DNA from: an uncultured Spirochaetota bacterium
GTDB taxonomy: Bacteria > Spirochaetota > Spirochaetia > SZUA-6 > Fen-1364
Assembly (NCBI GenBank): GCA_963745235.1
Contig: CAVUXE010000075.1
Span: forward strand, 1-64,000
Direction: 5' to 3'
Length of the DNA: 64,000 nucleotides
Positions 27,605-34,152 of the stretch are shown piece by piece (positions within the stretch are counted from its first letter, which is position 1; each line of letters begins with the position of its first letter). The notes below the pieces were generated by a model that worked only from the letters and a program-made list of their open reading frames with translations, made no database searches and had not been told where the DNA came from. The translations under genes were made by a program, and so were the position numbers.

Positions 27605-28489
27605 ATGAAGAGAGCTTTGGGTCTGGTGTCGGCACTTGTCCTCGTGTTCGCCGCATCGGCCTTCGCCCAATCGTACTCGGTCACCTATTCCGACGGCGTT
27701 GTAGAATTGAAGACCACGACCGGATGGACTGCCCTTTCCATTGGAGACTCCGTGCCCGCCAACGCGAGCGTACGCGTTTCCCAAACGGGATCCCTCGAGC
27801 TGACGCGAGCCAAAGCAAAAATCACCATCCTCAAGGACGGCACCTACGACGTTGCCGCTCTTGCCAGCGCCTCGCAGAAAAGTGGCGCAGGCGGCATAGG
27901 GGCCGATATCTCTCAGAAGCTCCAGTCCCTCACCTCAGGCAAGCAAAAGACCGGCACGGTTGGCGGTGTCCGGGCGGCTGAGCAGGGACAGCAGAGTGTG
28001 ACTTGGGCAGAGGAAAGCGATGAGGTCCGTAGCGAGGTGGCCGCCCTGCTTGCCGAAAAGAAGTACCAGGATGCCGTAAAGACCTTGGACAACGCGATCA
28101 ACGATGCCTCCTCTCCGGAGGACGAGCAGGAGTTTACCTACCTCCTGGGCGTTGCATATTACGGGTCCGGCCAGGCCGTCAAAGCGTACCGTGCAATTGC
28201 GAAGGTATCAGCGGATCCCAGCGCGCAGTGGTACGCGAGCTACATCATCCTGAAGTCGCAGCTCCTTGTGGACTCCCTCGACTTTACGGGAGCGCTTGCC
28301 GTTCTGCAGCCCTTCATATCGGCAAATCCGTCCGGAGAGCCCACCCAGGTTGCATACCTCCTCACGTACTACTGCCAGAAGGGTCTGGGCAATATACCAG
28401 CCGCGCGGGCCGCCCTTGACGCCGGCTACCAGATTGACCCGGAAAGCGAGACCGCAAAGCTGATGGACCAGGAGAGAAAAGCGCCATGA
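27605..28489 (+). CDS. Secreted protein with FecR-like N-terminus and TPR-like C-terminus
   Basis: Signal peptide; G.VE.....W..L..GD...VRV...G; TVGGVRA; helical repeats. Confidence 0.55.
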   Translation: MKRALGLVSALVLVFAASAFAQSYSVTYSDGVVELKTTTGWTALSIGDSVPANASVRVSQTGSLELTRAKAKITILKDGTYDVAALASASQKSGAGGIGADISQKLQSLTSGKQKTGTVGGVRAAEQGQQSVTWAEESDEVRSEVAALLAEKKYQDAVKTLDNAINDASSPEDEQEFTYLLGVAYYGSGQAVKAYRAIAKVSADPSAQWYASYIILKSQLLVDSLDFTGALAVLQPFISANPSGEPTQVAYLLTYYCQKGLGNIPAARAALDAGYQIDPESETAKLMDQERKAP

Positions 28490-28860
28490 AACACCAGGTA
28501 AGCACAGAGGGGGCGCCCGCCCCCATTGGCCCCTACTCCCAGGGCATTGTCTGCTCGGGAAGCCTGCTTTTCGTCGCAGGACAGACGGCAAAAGACCCCG
28601 CGTCAGGGGAGATCAAGCCGGACGTCCGCGGGCAGACAGAGCGCTGCCTGGAGAACATCAAGGCCATCGTGGAAAAAGCGGGGGCCAGTCTTGCGGACGT
28701 GGTCAAGGTGAACGCGTACCTCAAGAGCATGGCCACGTTCGCGGAGTTCAACGAAGTCTACGCACGGTTTTTCCCCAAGCCCTATCCGGCGAGAACAACG
28801 GTGGGCGCTGATCTGCCGGCAGGGACCCTTGTGGAGATCGACGCGGTGGTCGCGTTGTAA
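28486..28860 (+). CDS. ridA: RidA/YjgF enamine deaminase
   Basis: APAPIGPYSQ, NEVYA.FF..PYPART.V, VEIDA. Confidence 0.93.
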   Translation: MKHQVSTEGAPAPIGPYSQGIVCSGSLLFVAGQTAKDPASGEIKPDVRGQTERCLENIKAIVEKAGASLADVVKVNAYLKSMATFAEFNEVYARFFPKPYPARTTVGADLPAGTLVEIDAVVAL

Positions 28861-28971
28861 CACGGGGTCAAGCCGCATCGCCGTCCGAAGCCAAGCAACG
28901 GCGGCGTCTACGGTTCCTCTGCCGCACTAGAAGCCGGCCGTCAAGGGATCGGCTTCAACGATGTGTTAGGC
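28855..28971 (-). other. Integron attC-like recombination site
   Basis: Top strand GCCTAAC-ACATC-GTTGAAGCCG ... CGGCTTGAC-CCCGT-GTTACAA; 117 bp; upstream gene's TAA lies in R''; extra base in L''. Confidence 0.8.
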
Positions 28972-29187
28972 GTCAGCTCGTGCGTACTCGTAGACCGGTG
29001 TCTCGACAACCTTGTCGGGCTTCCGCCGGCTCTTGATTAAGATACGAATGTGCTCAACTGTCTCTGGCGCGAAGTATTGCTCTCCCGTGTCCTGAGAAAC
29101 CTTGGCGGGAACATGTTCCACAATATACACCTGTCCGTCATACTCGACGGTGTAGGTGACCTTGGCGTCGACCAATGCCTCCGGCAT
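28966..29187 (-). CDS. YgiT-type antitoxin-like protein (Cys-less variant)
   Basis: VTYT.EYDG..YIVEHVPA.V...TGEQYF.PETV. Confidence 0.82.
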   Translation of the reverse strand: MPEALVDAKVTYTVEYDGQVYIVEHVPAKVSQDTGEQYFAPETVEHIRILIKSRRKPDKVVETPVYEYARADA

Positions 29188-29196
29188 CTGTATCTC

Positions 29197-29445
29197 CTAT
29201 TCGCGCCGGCGGATCCGCATGTCGGTCCACCTGGCGGGATCGGGTTCGTAGACCGTCACGATCTTGACGACCGTTGGGTCGGAGCAGGCGCACTGCACGT
29301 GTAAAGCCCTTCCGGCATCAGTATACCCAAGAATCAGGCAGCTGGGGCCATACTTGTCCTGAGGGTATTCCTCGATCATCTCCGCTTCCCCAAGGAGGGC
29401 CTGTTCCACCTCGACAATGCCGATGTCCCTTGTGATCAGCTGGTC
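29197..29445 (-). pseudogene. DUF4258 toxin-like gene, 5' truncated
   Basis: DQLITRDI..EVEQA...IEEYPQDKYGPSCLILG.T..GR.LHV, TVYEPDP..W; no start codon before the IS. Confidence 0.8.
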
Positions 29446-29498
29446 GGCTTGCGCACTACTATCGGAGTCGGGCTCTGTGCCCCACGAGGAGGAATATC

Positions 29499-30485
29499 AT
29501 GCAAGCAATTTCCGTCGGCTTTGATGCTCACAAACACTACTCTCAACTTGAGCTCCAGGACGCCAGTGGCCAGGTGCTCAATCGAGTTCGCATCGATCAC
29601 TCTCCTGGAGCCATTTCCTCGTTTTTCTCTCGACTGCCAGGTGGAACTCCCGTCGCCTTGGAAAGCGTCGGCAATTGGTACTGGATCGCCGACGAGATCG
29701 AAGCGCAGGTTATCTGCTGACAAACCCCGCCAAGGCAAAGCTCATGATGGGCCACGTCAACAAAACTGATAAGCTCCATGCAAACGGCCTCGCCACTCTT
29801 CTTCGTTTCGGCAGCCTCCCACTGTGTGGCTGCCTCCTGCTGCCTTACGTGACCAGCGTGAGCTTTGGCCAAGTATAACCTCTGTCCCGAAGACGGCTCG
29901 CAGCTATTCAGCAAGAAAGGCAGATCCTGGCTTGACTCTTCCCTCTCACGCCTTCCTCCGGAGACCGGCCGTTGCCTCGCACAGCAAGTCGAGTCGCTCG
30001 ACTTCCTTTCTTTACAAATTGACACCCTTGAGGAACGAATCCATTACCTGATCGCCCTCCCCCCGACGATGCAGCTCCTGAAGAGCCTTCCTGGCGTTGG
30101 GGACATGTTGGCCATCGTCATCGAGCGCGAGGTGGGCACTATCGGCCGCTTTCCCTCGACCCCTCAATTCAGCAGCTACTGCGGCACCACGCCGCGGGTC
30201 AGTTCCAGTGGCGGCAAGACTCGCTATGGAAAATTGAGAACCGAGTCCAATCAGTGTCTCAAATGGGCGTTCATCGAAGCAGCCAACGCCATCTCGGCCC
30301 ACCACGCCCAGCGAGGCTGGACTGCCCGCCATGTCTCGAAACTTTACCTGCGCATCCGCTCTCGCAAAGGATCCTCGGTTGCCATCGGTGCCGTGGCCCG
30401 ACATCTTGCAGAGTCGACATTTTGGGTACTGACAAAAAATGAGCCGTATCGAGAATCCTCGAAGGTCTCACCGAGCCAGGGGTGA
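29499..30485 (+). pseudogene. IS110-family DEDD recombinase, frameshifted and internally deleted
   Basis: GFDAHK, ALES.GNW, KTDKLHA (last Asp is His), LPGVG, SYCGTTP...SSGGK, LKWAFIEAA, AVARHL. Confidence 0.9.
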
Positions 30486-30612
30486 GCACGGACCTAACAT
30501 GTGTCCTTGCGGTACGCGATTTGATTGTGACACCCCTGCTGAAGGTGATCATGCCCCAATGACGGCGCATAGATGTTTCCGGTAGGACGGGCTCAGTTGA
30601 TGTAGGGACAGG
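30486..30612 (+). ncRNA. Candidate bridge/seek RNA in the IS110 right end; boundaries approximate
   Basis: CCTAACAT (30493-30500) is the reverse complement of junction 30658-30665; ATAGATGTT (30569-30577) equals 30654-30662; two hairpin-containing loops. Confidence 0.6.
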
Positions 30613-30660
30613 AGGAGAAAGAAACTGGATTATCTTCAGACGCGAACGCTGTTATAGATG

Positions 30661-30972
30661 TTAGGCAGTCGATCCTCGTCTTGCCGAGCGTCTCGACCCG
30701 GAGAGTGAAGCTCCTCGCGCCGAATCCCTCCAGAAGCCCTGCTGGGTTTCCCCCCGGCCGCCTGCGATGCTGCGTCGAGATTTGCTCAACAGTGAGCGAA
30801 AGCGCGGCGATCGCGAAAGCAGTATGCCCTCGAGGTCGGCATCATCCGCCGGGGCGACAATCACTGCCACAGCCCGACCGTTGCGGGTGATTACGACCGG
30901 GCCGGAGGTCTCGGCCTCCAGCAAGTACGCGCTGAACTTGGCCTTGATCTCGGCCAGAGAAGCAACAGTCAT
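30661..30972 (-). CDS. Phd/YefM antitoxin; stop codon lies in the attC R'' box
   Basis: ASLAEIKAKFSAYL......PVVITRNGRAVAV; ends GCCTAAC. Confidence 0.9.
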   Translation of the reverse strand: MTVASLAEIKAKFSAYLLEAETSGPVVITRNGRAVAVIVAPADDADLEGILLSRSPRFRSLLSKSRRSIAGGRGETQQGFWRDSARGASLSGSRRSARRGSTA

Positions 30973-31291
30973 GGTACGAACTCCTTGCCGGCAATGAAAA
31001 GCCGAGCGTGGTCTTTGACCCCTATTGCCAGAATCCAGACCTGCCGGGATTCCGCCTCGACCTCGTAGAAGACACGAAATCGACTGTCGGGGCCACAGCG
31101 TAACTCCCAGGTAGCACCGTAGGGGCCAGGAGACCGCTCCAGCGGCTTGCGGTTGGAGTTTCCTGCCGCGGCGCGAAAGACAGTTGTTCCTTGACGGTCT
31201 CCCGCAACAGGCGCAGGTATCTCCGGTCTATGGCGTTGATGTGCGCATGGACTTCGGGAGCGTAGGCAAGAGATCGAGTACGTCCAGCCAC
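30969..31291 (-). CDS. RelE/ParE-family toxin, one frameshift
   Basis: LAYAPEV..H..AI...EQLSF.P..ET + NRKPL....WELRCGP..RFRVFYEV....V.ILAIGVK. Confidence 0.85.
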
Positions 31292-31292
31292 A

Positions 31293-31328
31293 GACTATAA
31301 TTATAGTCAGACAGCATTCCGGTATCAA
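31293..31328 (-). promoter_or_regulatory. Sigma70 promoter with palindromic operator
   Basis: TTGATA-17-TATAAT; perfect 16-bp palindrome GACTATAATTATAGTC (31293-31308). Confidence 0.8.
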
Positions 31329-31588
31329 TTGACACCGGGCCCCATGGTCAAGGATCGGAGCGTTGCGTAAGGTACGCCACTATGGCAGCGGACAGCGACC
31401 GCATCCATTCGGGCATAGTACGGTCAGACCCCCACGCCCGGGAACCTATGCCATAGAGGACTCAGAGCCGCTGTTGGGCCACCCATGAACCTGCTGACGG
31501 CCGCCTTAACGATTCGTATGCCCCACTCCACGTGCAGTGCTCCGCCAAGAGTTTTCTGACACACCCATCTCAACCTCAGCATGCTTCC

Positions 31589-32005
31589 TCACGTTTTCTC
31601 TCTTGCCAGAACTTCGACGAAACCATCCGGATTGACTATCCGCACTCCTTCACATTTTCCAATTGAGAGCAAATGATGGTCTCCTGATACAAGGTAATCA
31701 ACATTCGCTTCTATCGCGCAATCCAAGAACATATTGTCTTCCGGATCATCCTTGACTAATCCACGATGTTTCCGCGGTTCAACCCATTCTGCAATAGCAA
31801 TCATTTCGGAAATGATCGCCTGAACCGTTTGAGGGCCAAATCCAAACTTCGGTCTATGAAGAACTGCGCCAAGTTCCGCGATCGTCGGACCGGATATGCA
31901 GATTCTTATTGTCCCCCCGACGGCGGCTTCGAGAATTTGGCGAGGCTTGCCTCCAAAAAGAACGGCCGACAGCACTACATTTGTGTCTAGAACAACTTTG
32001 ATCAT
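31589..32005 (-). CDS. PIN-domain toxin
   Basis: VVLDTNV.LSA, DDPEDNMFLDCA, VSGDHHLL. Confidence 0.92.
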   Translation of the reverse strand: MIKVVLDTNVVLSAVLFGGKPRQILEAAVGGTIRICISGPTIAELGAVLHRPKFGFGPQTVQAIISEMIAIAEWVEPRKHRGLVKDDPEDNMFLDCAIEANVDYLVSGDHHLLSIGKCEGVRIVNPDGFVEVLAREKT

Positions 32006-32251
32006 TTACTTTTGTTTTTCTTTTCTGTAGTTGGCTATTTCCTTTTCGATGTCAGCTTCCGTCAGCCGATTCGCCCGGGCAAGTTTGGTACCTGCCTGAA
32101 AGATCTGATTCCATCTGCGCTTCCGCTCGATGTAGCTCCGGGCAGCTTCGCGAATAAGCTCTGACCGCGATCTCGACTCCTCTTGCGCTACCTCATCTAT
32201 TTGCTTGAGCAAATCCCTGGTAAAGGAAATGTTGACAGTACTCATGATCAC
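32006..32251 (-). CDS. CopG/RHH antitoxin
   Basis: TVNISF..DLL..ID.VA..E.RSRSELIREA. Confidence 0.9.
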   Translation of the reverse strand: MIMSTVNISFTRDLLKQIDEVAQEESRSRSELIREAARSYIERKRRWNQIFQAGTKLARANRLTEADIEKEIANYRKEKQK

Positions 32252-32368
32252 ACCTCAAATGAAAGCGTGCATACAAACTTTGTACATTGTCAAGGGACCT
32301 CACAGCGACGTCAACCGCAACGACTTGACATGTCCAATCAGGATTGTCAGCCAGGCCACGCGAGGCGG

Positions 32369-32785
32369 TCAGTCGGTCCGATCTTTCTTGTTCTTCAAGA
32401 TCTCCCAGAACTGCCTTGGCGGTACTATCGAAATTTCTGCATGCCGCTCCAGGATCAGCAGGTCCTCGTCTCCTGTGATGATGTAGTCCGCCTTTGACTC
32501 TTCGGCGAGGGCCAGGACATGGTCATCTGACGGATCCCTCGACACACGCCTTGATAGACGTTTTGTCTCTTGGACGGACGCGTGGTTCGTGAGATAGTCG
32601 ATTGCGCCGTCGACGAGGGCCGGTGGCACCTTCAACTTGTTCTGGAGGGCACCCGCGACTTCTCTCAAGATTTCGTCACTGAGCACGATCTCATGCTGGT
32701 CAATACATACCTCGAGGAGGGCATGGCATAGCCCCTGGGTTGCGAACGCCGCTATGATGACATTCGCATCCAGTACAAGTCTCAT
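32369..32785 (-). CDS. PIN-domain toxin
   Basis: LVLDANV.IAA, RDPSDD.VL, ITGDEDLL. Confidence 0.92.
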   Translation of the reverse strand: MRLVLDANVIIAAFATQGLCHALLEVCIDQHEIVLSDEILREVAGALQNKLKVPPALVDGAIDYLTNHASVQETKRLSRRVSRDPSDDHVLALAEESKADYIITGDEDLLILERHAEISIVPPRQFWEILKNKKDRTD

Positions 32786-33000
32786 GAAATGCTTTTGAAC
32801 ACATCCTCATCCGTCAGAATCCCCTGCGCTTCGGCGAACGGAAGGATGGTGTTGCGCAACTTTCTGAAGTTGTAGATCGACACGTATCGCTGAATCGACT
32901 CGCGTACCAGATCGCTTACGGGCTTTGCTTCTGAATCGCTTATCTCCTGCAACTCTTTGCGGAGATCATCGGGAATACGGACGGTCAGGGCCCGTTTCAT
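32782..33000 (-). CDS. CopG/RHH antitoxin
   Basis: LTVRIPDDL..EL......SDLVRES...AEAQGILTDEDVF. Confidence 0.9.
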   Translation of the reverse strand: MKRALTVRIPDDLRKELQEISDSEAKPVSDLVRESIQRYVSIYNFRKLRNTILPFAEAQGILTDEDVFKSIS

Positions 33001-33165: not shown

Positions 33166-34152
33166 ATGTCCATCAACGGGAGCGTCTTCGCCCCCATCGC
33201 CCTGCTTGCATATAACCGCCCGGCACATCTCGAAAGATGCCTCGCCAGTCTGCGACTGAACCCGGAGTGCGCCCGGACCGTCCTCTACTGCTACTTGGAC
33301 GGTCCCCGCTGCTCTGAAGACGCCCGCATGGTTGAACAGGTCCGAGGGATTGCCCGAGCAGCCACCGGGTTTCGCGCAGTGAACATTGTCGAGAGAGACT
33401 GCAACTGGGGCCTTTCCAGAAACGTCATAGGCGGCGTCACCCAGGTCCTTGCGCACCACGAGAAGGTCATTGTCGTGGAGGATGACCTGGAGGTGTCCTC
33501 GACGTTCCTGCGCTACATGAACGAAGCGCTGAGCTTCTATGCATCATCTCCGGAGGTTTTCAGCGTCAGCGCATACAACTACCCGAAGAAGCTGTTCTCC
33601 GTTCCAAAGGGCTATCCCTTCGACGCGTTCTTCGTTCAACGGCACATGTGCTGGGGGTGGGGGACCTGGCGGGACAGGTGGCAAAGGGCGGACTGGCAGG
33701 TCCGTGATTACGACTCGCTGAGCAGGAGCGAATCGTGGCAGCGCTCTTTCCGCGAGGGCGGAGTGGATCTTCCGGGCATGCTGGATGCGCAGGTCCATGG
33801 TCAAGTCGATTCATGGGCCATCCGGTGGACGCATGCTCATTTCACCCACCATGCGGTCTGTCTTGTCCCGGTGGAATCTTTCGTCAACAACATGGGTGCG
33901 GACGGCTCCGGGGTCCACATGAAGCGCTCCAACCGCTATTTCCACCCGACGTTGAACAACAGGGAGGAGCTGCGGCTCCCCTCCCTCGTGTACGTGGACC
34001 CGTTCATCGCCCGAATGTACAAGACAGTGGAAAGGAGAAGCCTTGCTTTCCGAGCGGTGCGCAAGGTCTCACGGATGGTCCTGGGCGTCGGAAGCCCAGG
34101 CACCTTGAGCGCGGCGCTGAATCAGAACAGGGCCAGTACGTCCCGCGGGTGA
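33166..34152 (+). CDS. GT-A fold glycosyltransferase (family 2-like)
   Basis: APIALLAYNRP.H, DGPR, N.GL, IVVEDDL, CWGWGTW. Confidence 0.88.
   Translation: MSINGSVFAPIALLAYNRPAHLERCLASLRLNPECARTVLYCYLDGPRCSEDARMVEQVRGIARAATGFRAVNIVERDCNWGLSRNVIGGVTQVLAHHEKVIVVEDDLEVSSTFLRYMNEALSFYASSPEVFSVSAYNYPKKLFSVPKGYPFDAFFVQRHMCWGWGTWRDRWQRADWQVRDYDSLSRSESWQRSFREGGVDLPGMLDAQVHGQVDSWAIRWTHAHFTHHAVCLVPVESFVNNMGADGSGVHMKRSNRYFHPTLNNREELRLPSLVYVDPFIARMYKTVERRSLAFRAVRKVSRMVLGVGSPGTLSAALNQNRASTSRG

What the first reader, a model, noticed from the sequence alone, without database searches (positions are those of the whole stretch)
29430..30670. IS110/IS1111 element inserted into an integron attC site, with a right-end RNA that appears to encode the attC target and its own donor end
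Seen in sequence: both junctions share TG (29450-29451 and 30659-30660). Excising 29452-30660 gives, on the minus strand, GCCTAAC-AAGCC-GACCAGCTGA, an attC R''-spacer-L'' start containing the phd stop codon. The ~175-nt right end contains CCTAACAT (30493-30500, the target's left half plus core), then a hairpin, then GCGATTTG (30516-30523). Together these predict a target CCTAACAAATCGC, which matches the intact attC at 28958-28970 (CCTAACACATCGT) at 11/13. A second region has ATAGATGTT (30569-30577), identical to the element's right junction, next to GCGCA, which is complementary to core + left end. Established: IS110-family recombinases use a bridge/seek RNA with target- and donor-binding segments, and an IS1111-attC group targets attC sites. 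Inference: this is an RNA-programmed attC-targeting recombinase whose guide can be read from sequence, in a spirochete-like host and with no obvious sub-terminal inverted repeats, so possibly a separate lineage. This copy's recombinase is decayed.
Basis: partly seen in the sequence, partly recalled or inferred. Interest (0 to 1): 0.85.

Follow-up and report, generated by a model that had tools for sequence, protein, structure and literature searches.

The report
Decayed attC-targeting IS1111 element with guide RNA
This is a broken copy of an RNA-guided insertion sequence of a known kind (IS1111 type) sitting in an integron-style attC site; its guide RNA gene is still readable, and the mechanism is already published.

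Summary
The quoted motifs are all at the stated coordinates. The element is an IS110-family, IS1111-type insertion sequence at the 5' end of an attC-type site, antisense to the cassettes.

Its ~120-nt right-end non-coding region encodes a seekRNA/bridge RNA. In relatives, three guide segments track the DNA they should pair with:
- Right target guide: 6.68 of 8 matches against 5.02 when flanks are shuffled.
- Left target guide: 4.86 of 6 against 2.65.
- Right-end donor guide: 7 of 7 in 57 of 59 elements.

The predicted target CCTAAC-A-AATCG is the attC consensus of this genome's own integron: 14 sites lie beside intI on contig C9.

- The left "TG junction" is not the real end. About 30 bp were deleted there, taking attC bases and the first ~20 nt of the element, including the left sub-terminal inverted repeat. 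Relatives have both repeats.
- "GCGCA" is a hairpin arm, not a donor guide.
- The mechanism was published in 2024 for attC-targeting IS1111 elements.

The transposase gene carries four deletions (1, 6, 1 and 64 nt). Verdict: a new, decayed member of a known kind. It belongs to a large uncatalogued clade at most 33.5% identical to plasmid-borne IS110-family transposases.

The parts
28855..28971 (-). Intact neighbouring attC of the host's type: R'' GCCTAAC, spacer ACATC, L'' GTTGAAGCCGAT ... L' GCGGCTTGAC, R' GTTACAA.
   Evidence: It aligns end to end with six attC sites of the intI-adjacent array on contig C9 of the same genome.
29442..29450 (-). Remnant of L'' of the interrupted attC (AAGCCGACC on the minus strand). 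Bases 29448-29450 (CTT) could belong to the attC or to the element, as microhomology at the deletion scar.
   Evidence: Host attCs read GTTGAAGCCGACC. The L048 left flank reads GGGTCGGCTTCAACGACTTG.
29448..29498 (+). Truncated left end of the element. The first ~18-20 nt, including the core TG and the left sub-terminal inverted repeat TATAACAGCGC, are missing.
   Evidence: Alignment with L044, L109, L048, L019 and L004. Contigs of relatives in runs X1 and X18 continue before 29448 with ...AACGATTTGATAATATAACAGCGCCTC. TATAACAGCG is absent on the + strand.
29499..30485 (+). Transposase (DEDD recombinase) pseudogene. Relative to L044 it lacks 1 nt at 29704/5, 6 nt at 29711/12, 1 nt at 29817/18 and 64 nt at 29865/66.
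   Evidence: The ORFs are split across three frames. PF02371 matches 29865-30485. The indels are listed. Relatives' contigs carry the 64 nt in X19, X20 and X1.
30476..30596 (+). seekRNA/bridge RNA gene. Outer stem 30477-81 with 30534-38, and inner stem 30487-89 with 30527-29. Two of its 22 pairs are broken in this copy.
   Evidence: 62-sequence alignment A2. RNAalifold gave 18 pairs, 14 with compensatory changes. Broken pairs were counted. There was no Rfam match.
30492..30499 (+). Right target guide ACCTAACA. It is complementary to core TG plus the right flank TTAGGC, matching 7 of 8 here.
   Evidence: Guide and flank covary in 51 elements. The G052 copies A and B show a single-base example.
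30501..30515 (+). Hairpin separating the two target guides.
   Evidence: Alignment A2 columns 25-30 pair with 38-43. Four of the six pairs show compensatory changes.
30516..30523 (+). Left target guide GCGATTTG. It is identical to the left target plus core in relatives (A/GCGATT-TG). The following ATT (30524-26) matches the start of the relatives' left end.
   Evidence: The left flanks of L019, L044, L049 and L109 read CAACGATTTG.
30545..30551 (+). Candidate left-end donor guide GTGATCA. It is partly complementary to core plus left end (TGATAAT). This assignment is tentative.
   Evidence: 4.84 of 7 matches against 4.49 when shuffled (sd 0.09; 1 of 10,000 shuffles reached the observed value). 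The effect is small.
30553..30566 (+). Second hairpin (GCCC...GGC).
   Evidence: Alignment A2 columns 82-85 pair with 96-99. Three of the four pairs show compensatory changes.
30569..30577 (+). Right-end donor guide ATAGATG, identical to the right end plus core. The TT extension equals the first flank bases.
   Evidence: 7 of 7 in 57 of 59 elements, with four covarying variants. This 9-mer occurs only twice in the window.
30647..30656 (+). Right sub-terminal inverted repeat CGCTGTTATA.
30659..30660 (+). Core dinucleotide TG at the true right junction.
   Evidence: Homology among relatives ends ...ATAGATG followed by TTA(G/T)G.
30660..30666 (-). R'' box GCCTAAC of the interrupted attC. It contains the stop codon of the phd antitoxin gene (30661-30972).
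   Evidence: PF02604 matches.

Best explanation
Bases 29448-30660 are a dead copy of an IS1111-type insertion sequence (IS110 family, DEDD recombinase). It inserted, antisense to the cassette genes, between the R'' box and the L'' box of an attC-type recombination site that follows a relE-like/phd cassette.

Elements of this clade carry a ~120-nt RNA gene just after the transposase stop codon. The RNA has a first internal loop with two guides flanking a hairpin:
- One guide is complementary to core TG plus the right target half (here ACCUAACA).
- The other is identical to the left target half plus core (here GCGAUUUG).

Together these spell GCCTAAC-A-AATCG, the 5' end of the host's attC sites.

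A second loop carries AUAGAUG, identical to the element's right end plus core. It also carries a weaker segment that is partly complementary to the left end. By analogy with characterised IS1111 and IS110 elements, the recombinase-RNA complex should pair these segments with the target and with the circular donor junction, then exchange strands at the core TG. That last step is inferred, not shown here.

After insertion this copy decayed:
- A ~30-bp deletion between CTT repeats removed attC bases (CAACGATT), the core, and the first ~18 nt of the left end with its inverted repeat.
- Four deletions broke the transposase gene.
- Two RNA stem pairs are lost, and the right-end TTGAC box is lost by eye from the, 28 sequences (not tested).

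The copy can no longer move.
For: Family:
- PF02371 matches the window ORF. PF01548 plus PF02371 match the intact relatives L044 and L092.
- Relatives carry sub-terminal inverted repeats of 11-19 nt.
- The long non-coding region lies downstream of the transposase gene.

Ends:
- Two 99.4%-identical copies in G052 define the ends as flank|CAACGATT-TG-ATAATATAACAGCG ... GTTATAGA-TG|TTA.

Guides:
- Right target guide against the reverse complement of the right flank, in 51 elements: 8/8 in 21, 7/8 in 16, 6/8 in 11 and 5/8 in 3. Across 34 unique pairs the mean was 6.68, against 5.02 when shuffled (sd 0.19), and 0 of 10,000 shuffles reached it.
- Left target guide, in 57 elements and 22 unique pairs: 4.86 of 6 against 2.65, and 0 of 10,000 shuffles reached it.
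- Right-end donor guide: 7/7 in 57 of 59 elements. The variants ATAGGTG, AGATATG and ATACATG each match their own element's end.
- G052 copies A and B differ at 6 of 1036 positions. One difference is the guide base C/A, and their flanks differ in the same way (GCCTAAC against ACATAAC).

Structure:
- 14 of 18 consensus pairs show compensatory changes.

Target is an attC:
- G052's copies lie 5-13 kb from an intI scoring 448.6 bits (cut-off 265), inside a cassette array.
- The own genome has 14 xxTAACAA(A/G)TCGTTG sites in the array beside intI on C9.
- The window's intact neighbouring site aligns full-length with those attCs.

Decay.

Literature:
- seekRNA lies in the 3' non-coding region of IS1111 elements, including attC-targeting ones, with the top-strand match 5' of the bottom-strand match, as here (PMC11187229 section 9).
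- ISPa21 and ISPst6 insert near the 5' end of attC, antisense to the cassettes (PMC3001079 passage).
Against: - Nothing was shown for this copy itself. It is a single copy in its genome, its left junction is not original, and only its right guide can be checked against a flank (7 of 8).
- No RNA ends or strand were observed. Contigs from three RNA libraries cover relatives' non-coding regions at 90-95% identity, but contigs cannot show transcription.
- The left-end donor guide is weak.
- In the GCGAAGC specificity group, the right guide sits one base off register relative to the hairpin and does not pair with the T of the core.
- The interrupted site has no recognisable attC 3' half within the 42 nt before the first start codon of the DUF4258 ORF, so it may have been only a partial attC.
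- There is no intI in the window. The genome's intI genes are on other contigs.
- The deletion model rests on comparison with relatives, not on an empty site.
Confidence: 0.88

Rival explanations
1. The element is complete from 29452 to 30660, is flanked by a duplicated TG, lacks sub-terminal repeats, and represents a lineage with different end recognition. GCGCA would then serve as its left-end guide.
For: TG is present at both stated junctions. GCGCA (30565-69) is complementary to TGCGC at 29450-54.
Against: - The 92.7%-identical L044 and five other relatives carry about 20 more nt at the left, with the inverted repeat.
- Contigs of relatives in X1 and X18 run on before 29448 with that same sequence.
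- GCG(C/T/A)A is the conserved hairpin arm in all 62 RNAs, whatever their left end.
- The left target guide GCGATTTG fits relatives' left flanks at 7-8 of 8, but fits this copy's flank TCGGCTTG at only 5 of 8.
Confidence: 0.03
2. The matches between the right-end region and the flanks are not RNA guides. They are leftovers of captured attC sequence, or sites read by the protein, and targeting is by protein recognition of the folded attC, as with integron integrases.
For: attC sites are structured, and proteins are known to read them (recalled, from no call). Most sampled elements share one target, so conservation alone could mimic guides. No RNA was observed directly.
Against: - Guides change together with flanks across several unrelated specificities: GCGAAGC/GAGATTG, CTCGCA/TCATTG, CGGTAACA/AGAATG and others.
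- The guides sit in a structure kept by compensatory changes.
- A single-base guide/flank pair separates two near-identical copies.
- Experiments on ISKpn4 and ISPst6 showed an RNA from the non-coding region that co-purifies with the transposase and is essential for movement (PMC11187229 abstract and section 9).
Confidence: 0.05
3. The site is not an attC in any functional sense. The element hit a short attC-like 16-mer in a toxin-antitoxin island outside any integron.
For: There is no intI in the 64-kb window. GCCTAAC occurs only 3 times in the window, no more than chance. The interrupted site shows no attC 3' half.
Against: The neighbouring site at 28855-28971 is a full-length attC of the host array's type. 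Both cassettes end with a stop codon inside R''. This rival concerns only the status of the site. The guide needs only the R''-L'' end, so the mechanism stands either way.
Confidence: 0.25

Closest known systems
IS1111-attC group (ISPa21, ISPst6, ISKpn4, ISPa25)
   Same: The target is the 5' (R''-L'') end of attC. The orientation is antisense to the cassettes (PMC3001079 passage). The elements have sub-terminal inverted repeats, a 3' non-coding region, and a seekRNA with the top-strand match placed 5' of the bottom-strand match (PMC11187229 section 9).
   Different: The best tblastn identity to any PLSDB plasmid hit is 33.5% for the L004 transposase and 32.9% for L092. The named group members are therefore probably distant. 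I could not obtain their sequences, so common descent is untested. The hosts here are Spirochaetota MAGs by record title, plus unnamed metagenome contigs. This copy is non-functional.
IS621 bridge RNA (IS110 group)
   Same: There are two loops, one for the target and one for the donor. Each has one guide identical to, and one complementary to, the top strand, overlapping at a core dinucleotide. The two 'left' guides carry short 3' extensions matching the recombinant junction (ATT after the left target guide, TT or CTT after the right-end guide). These resemble the handshake guides I recall for IS621, a recollection not taken from any call.
   Different: The RNA lies in the right end, downstream of the recombinase gene, not in the left end. 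The core is TG, while CT for IS621 is recalled. The sub-terminal repeats are long. The guide for the left end is weak.
Group IIC-attC introns
   Same: They also insert near the 5' end of attC, antisense to the cassettes (PMC3001079 passage).
   Different: They are retroelements with a reverse transcriptase and ribozyme. Here there is a DEDD recombinase with PF01548 and PF02371.

Membership tests
IS110 family, IS1111 group | DEDD/RuvC-like N-terminal domain (PF01548) plus C-terminal PF02371 domain | tested here: met
   Both domains match the intact relatives L044 and L092. In the window, only PF02371 was detected, on 29865-30485. The N-terminal fragments gave no hit at E<=0.01.
IS110 family, IS1111 group | Sub-terminal inverted repeats of 7-17 bp | tested here: met
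   Relatives carry TATAACAGCGC/GCGCTGTTATA or TATGAAAGCGCTGCACCT and its complement, 11-19 nt long. The window copy keeps only the right one.
IS110 family, IS1111 group | The longer non-coding region lies downstream of the transposase gene | tested here: met
   175 nt follow the stop codon (30486-30660), against about 70 nt upstream in the intact L044.
IS110 family, IS1111 group | G--P----S/TG motif in the C-terminal domain (PMC11187229 section 6) | tested here: met
   GTTPRVSSSG is present in the window ORF and in relatives. The residue after G is T, not the L of the IS1111 logo GL-P.
IS1111-attC group | Insertion near the 5' end of attC, antisense to cassette transcription | tested here: met
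   The element is on the + strand and the cassettes are on the - strand. The junction lies after GCCTAAC-A. The same holds in G052 beside its intI.
IS1111-attC group | Transposase monophyletic with ISPa21 and ISPst6 | not testable with these tools
   The reference sequences were not obtainable. There is only an indirect figure: at most 33.5% identity to any PLSDB hit.
seekRNA / bridge RNA | Two segments in the non-coding region, one matching each strand of the target, overlapping at the insertion point and changing with the target | tested here: met
seekRNA / bridge RNA | A donor-binding loop matching both element ends | tested here: inconclusive
   The right-end guide is clear. The left-end guide is only 4.84 of 7 against 4.49 when shuffled.
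seekRNA / bridge RNA | The RNA is made and binds the recombinase | not testable with these tools
   Contigs in three RNA libraries cover relatives' non-coding regions, but contigs cannot show transcription.
attC site / integron | R''-L''...L'-R' architecture like that of the host's cassette array | tested here: inconclusive
   The neighbouring site 28855-28971 meets this. The interrupted site shows only R'' plus 9-14 nt of L''.
attC site / integron | An adjacent integron integrase | tested here: not met
   There is no intI in the window. TIGR02249 hits above the cut-off lie on C9, and a split one lies on C5. The window's two sites are a cluster lacking an integrase.

The most novel reading that the evidence does not exclude
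The window copy belongs to a large, uncatalogued clade of IS1111-type RNA-guided recombinases from Spirochaetota and from unnamed metagenome contigs. The clade would be separate from the clinical IS1111-attC group.

In this clade attC targeting is widespread, and specificity has been re-set several times by changes in the guides. These range down to a single guide base that distinguishes two copies in one genome.

Its compact ~120-nt RNA carries target guides, a donor guide and product-matching extensions. That would make it a natural panel of re-targeted bridge recombinases.
Probability: 0.45. Interest if true: 0.5.

Novelty: new member of a known kind. Interest (0 to 1): 0.35.

Why it matters
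For this locus, very little: it is a fossil insertion sequence in a small toxin-antitoxin cassette cluster.

The relatives are more useful. More than 50 natural elements have readable guide/flank pairs, and there are at least five distinct target specificities. One same-genome pair differs by a single guide base. Together these are an independent comparative confirmation of RNA-guided targeting in the IS1111 group.

The data also show that attC-targeting elements of this kind are common in environmental integrons outside the clinical Proteobacteria where they were described. Intact relatives such as the L044 type could serve as further programmable recombinases.

Tried and rejected
Searches that found nothing or did not help:
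- Rfam (E<=1) on 28000-32000 gave no match.
- The ORF 33166-34152 was tried as a candidate integrase and had no NCBIfam hit.
- blastn 'distant' of an intact metagenome element against plasmids gave no match.
- Plasmid hit H43 (Pseudomonas) was inspected as a possible known attC element. It is not in an integron.
- A search of all held loci for an element's right end joined to an internal guide site, or to a left end, found none.

Script errors, corrected afterwards:
- sliced the left flank 2 nt off, giving meaningless low matches. One search corrected it.
- One search used the wrong offset for the left-end guide (0.84 against 0.83). One search corrected it.
- The hairpin-based locator for the right guide failed on 20 RNAs with G-U stems. 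It was replaced by alignment columns.

Rows dropped before counts:
- L060, L063 and the minus-strand hits of L085 and L089 were spurious motif hits.
- L066, L076, L100 and the second hits of L096 and L097 have an 18-23-nt insertion inside the left guide.
- L015, L034, L082 and L116 were left out of alignment A2 for atypical layout.
- In one search, 3 of 62 rows had no right end on the contig.

Reads:
- Parts of the stretch without RNA-contig cover carry no weight.
- The RNA runs held only 0.05 of the sampled words, and their contigs were 90-95% alike, so they are relatives and not this copy.

- I did not see Tetu & Holmes 2008 or Post & Hall 2009. They were only cited by others, and one search reported the first as not held.
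- Supplements of PMC11187229 could bear on how alike the folds are, notably Supplementary Fig. 7 with the ISKpn4, ISPst6 and ISPa25 seekRNAs.

Considered and rejected: a group IIC-attC intron (there is no reverse transcriptase, and the DEDD domains are present), and an assembly artefact at the left junction. An X1 DNA contig spans 29300-29486 with 2 differences, though X1 may be the source sample.
Full report
**The observation**

- TG at 29450-51 and at 30659-60.
- CCTAACAT at 30493-30500, GCGATTTG at 30516-30523 and ATAGATGTT at 30569-30577.
- CCTAACACATCGT on the minus strand of 28958-28970, which is 11 of 13 to the predicted target.

ATAGATGTT occurs only twice in the 64-kb window, as the internal copy and at the right junction; 0 of 100 shuffles reached two. 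CCTAACAT also occurs only at the internal site and, on the other strand, at the right junction, though 10 of 100 shuffles reached two.

The element is a single copy in its 5.8-Mb assembly. No Rfam family matches the region.

**What the element is**

The ORF 29865-30485 matches Pfam Transposase_20 (PF02371). The upstream fragments give no hit.

Relatives were collected in three searches:
- 6 loci from species-representative genomes, with record titles naming Spirochaetota, Spirochaetia or Spirochaetaceae MAGs.
- Matches in 12 of 92 genomes of the same order, counting the window's own.
- 80 metagenome loci, kept from 222 confirmed relatives.

The closest intact relative is L044. It is 92.7% identical in DNA (1136 of 1226 aligned bases) and 1307 bp long. 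It encodes a 352-aa protein with both PF01548 (DEDD_Tnp_IS110) and PF02371.

Against L044, the window's gene lacks 1 nt at 29704/5, 6 nt at 29711/12, 1 nt at 29817/18 and 64 nt at 29865/66. Contigs of relatives in two RNA libraries and one DNA run carry the 64 nt.

**The ends**

Two copies in genome G052 are 99.4% identical over 1036 nt but sit in different flanks. They fix the ends as flank-CAACGATT-TG-ATAATATAACAGCGC... on the left and ...GCGTTGTTATAGA-TG-TTA(G/T)G-flank on the right.

An inverted-repeat scan across the loci found sub-terminal repeats of 11-19 nt in most complete elements. They read TATAACAGCGC/GCGCTGTTATA in the window's sub-clade and TATGAAAGCGCTGCACCT elsewhere. They lie 6 nt inside the left end and 4 nt inside the right end.

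The window copy has only the right repeat (30647-30656). L044 reads TG-ATAATATAACAGCGCCTC-CTTGCGCACTACTATCGGA. The window reads ...CAGCTGGTCGG-CTTGCGCACTACTATCGGA from 29448. Contigs of relatives in runs X1 and X18 continue before 29448 with ...AACGATTTGATAATATAACAGCGCCTC.

The left 'TG' is therefore internal element sequence.

The flank GGTCGGCTT is the complement of AAGCCGACC, the L'' box of the host's attC sites. My reading is a ~30-bp deletion between two CTT triplets. It removed CAACGATT, the core TG and the first 18 nt of the element. This is inferred from relatives, not from an empty site.

**The target is an attC**

- In G052 the two copies lie 5-13 kb from an integron integrase scoring 448.6 bits against TIGR02249 (cut-off 265). 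They sit within an array whose cassettes end in ...CTCAACAGCGTC-GTTAGGC-type sites.
- In the window's own genome the integrase is on contig C9 (373.2 bits).
- The motif YCTAACANNTCGYTG, with one mismatch allowed, has 45 hits against 17 for the reversed control.
- Fourteen of those hits are spaced through 238451-251208, directly beside that intI. Others lie next to a split intI on C5.
- These attCs read xxTAAC-AA(A/G)TC-GTTGAAGCCGACC...GGCGGCTTAAC-TCTAT-GTTAxxx.
- The window's site at 28855-28971 aligns with them from R'' to R', so it is a true attC of the host's type.
- The interrupted site keeps R'' (GCCTAAC, holding the phd stop codon) and part of L''. It shows no 3' half in the 42 nt before the first start codon of the DUF4258 ORF.
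- No integrase lies in the window, so these two sites form a small cluster without one.

The position (5' end of attC) and the orientation (antisense to the cassettes) are those reported for ISPa21 and ISPst6 (PMC3001079, passage seen).

**The RNA**

An alignment of 62 distinct right-end regions (A2) folds into a consensus of 18 pairs, 14 with compensatory changes. The layout is:
- An outer and an inner stem close an internal loop.
- The two sides of that loop flank a hairpin.
- A second hairpin follows, flanked by two further single-stranded segments.
- By eye, a terminal CCGG...CCGG hairpin comes last.

First-loop guides:
- The 5' side (window ACCTAACA) is complementary to core TG plus the right flank. 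In 51 elements with a right flank on the contig, the match was 8/8 in 21, 7/8 in 16, 6/8 in 11 and 5/8 in 3.
- Over 34 unique guide/flank pairs the mean was 6.68, against 5.02 (sd 0.19) when flanks were shuffled. None of 10,000 shuffles reached the observed value.
- The 3' side (window GCGATTTG) is identical to the left flank plus core. Over 57 elements and 22 unique pairs it scored 4.86 of 6 non-core positions against 2.65, and again 0 of 10,000 shuffles reached it.

The signal comes from real switches of specificity:

| Right guide and flank | Left guide and flank |
|---|---|
| GCCTAACA | GCGAGTTG or GCGATTTG |
| GCCCAACA | |
| GCCGAACA | |
| CGGTAACA | AGAATG |
| GCGAAGC | GAGATTG or GAGACTG |
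| CTCGCA | TCATTG |

The two G052 copies differ at 6 of 1036 positions. One difference is the guide base C/A, mirrored by their flanks GCCTAAC and ACATAAC.

The order of the guides, top-strand match 5' of bottom-strand match, is the one described for IS1111 seekRNAs (PMC11187229 section 9).

**The donor side**

The segment after the second hairpin (window ATAGATG) equals the element's right end plus core in 57 of 59 elements. The variants ATAGGTG, AGATATG and ATACATG each match their own element. The two exceptions are L007 and L014, at 5 of 7.

The next 2-3 bases tend to equal the first flank bases: TT(T) before TTA flanks and CTT before CTT flanks. L119 and L120 do not fit, at 0 of 3. Likewise, the left target guide is followed by ATT, which equals the start of the left end. 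This looks like pairing with the recombinant junctions.

The segment before the second hairpin (window GTGATCA) is only partly complementary to core plus left end. It scores 4.84 of 7 against 4.49 when shuffled (sd 0.09), and 1 of 10,000 shuffles reached it. I regard it as tentative.

It is not a guide.

In the window copy, 2 of 22 checked pairs are broken, whereas 36 of 62 rows have none broken.

**Comparison with what is known**

- RNA guidance in this family is established. NCR-derived seekRNAs co-purify with IS1111 transposases, including the attC-targeting ISKpn4 and ISPst6. A similar RNA was inferred for ISPa25 (PMC11187229: abstract, sections 6, 9 and 13, and passages).
- Bridge RNAs were predicted in the right ends of 93% of IS1111 elements (PMC11208160, passages).
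- The finding is therefore not a new mechanism.
- tblastn of two clade members against 72,556 plasmids gave best identities of 33.5% and 32.9%. The clade is thus remote from plasmid-borne IS110-family genes.
- I could not obtain ISPa21, ISPst6 or ISKpn4 sequences, so membership of the named IS1111-attC group by descent is untested.
- A tree of 62 transposases of at least 300 aa puts the window's sub-clade (L002, L044, L019, L048, L046, L047) among other attC-targeting branches. The GCGAAGC-type and other specificities sit on separate branches. Target labels are strongly clustered: 6 changes against 16.1 for shuffled labels. Three rows labelled 'other' inside the attC branches (L066, L076, L100) are attC-type RNAs with an insertion, mislabelled by my rule.

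**Verdict**

This is a decayed, immobile member of a known kind, an IS1111-type RNA-guided insertion sequence at an attC site.

Noticed in passing
window 30522-30660 (contig of a relative in RNA run X19): One 170-nt contig joins an element's right end (...TTGACGCGGGCGCTGTTATAGA) directly to TGATTGTGAC at 30522. That is the DNA that encodes the left target guide. It could be a copy inserted into another copy's guide-coding DNA, since that DNA mimics the left half of the target. It could also be a small circle, or a chimera. This is a single contig at depth 8.6.
   Followed up: partly
L066, L076, L082, L096, L097, L100 (right-end RNA region): Some relatives carry an 18-23-nt G+C-rich insertion inside the left target guide, between GCGAG and TTGATTG. 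It probably forms an extra small hairpin.
   Followed up: no
window 28966-33000, minus strand: There is a run of toxin-antitoxin pairs: two RHH/PIN pairs (32999-32369 and 32251-31589), a RelE-like ORF with Phd (31328-30661), and DUF4258 with a 73-aa partner (29409-28966). Only the last two end in attC-type R'' boxes.
   Followed up: partly
window 31330-31590, minus strand: A ~260-nt stretch between the second PIN gene and the RelE-like ORF has no annotated family and no Rfam hit. It was not examined further.
   Followed up: no
window 29409-29451, minus strand: The DUF4258 reading frame stays open upstream of its first GTG, through the attC remnant up to the phd stop codon. The Pfam match starts at profile position 24. 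The gene's true start may therefore have been affected by the insertion or the deletion.
   Followed up: no
L012/L030 (G052:C1, about 1965.7-1967.1 kb): The second G052 copy is itself interrupted in its 5' part by an unrelated insertion of about 1.4 kb.
   Followed up: no
G000:C5:7100-7976: A second integron-integrase gene in the same genome is split into two adjoining matches (183 and 171 bits, both below the cut-off). attC-type motifs lie beside it at C5:9007-10901.
   Followed up: no
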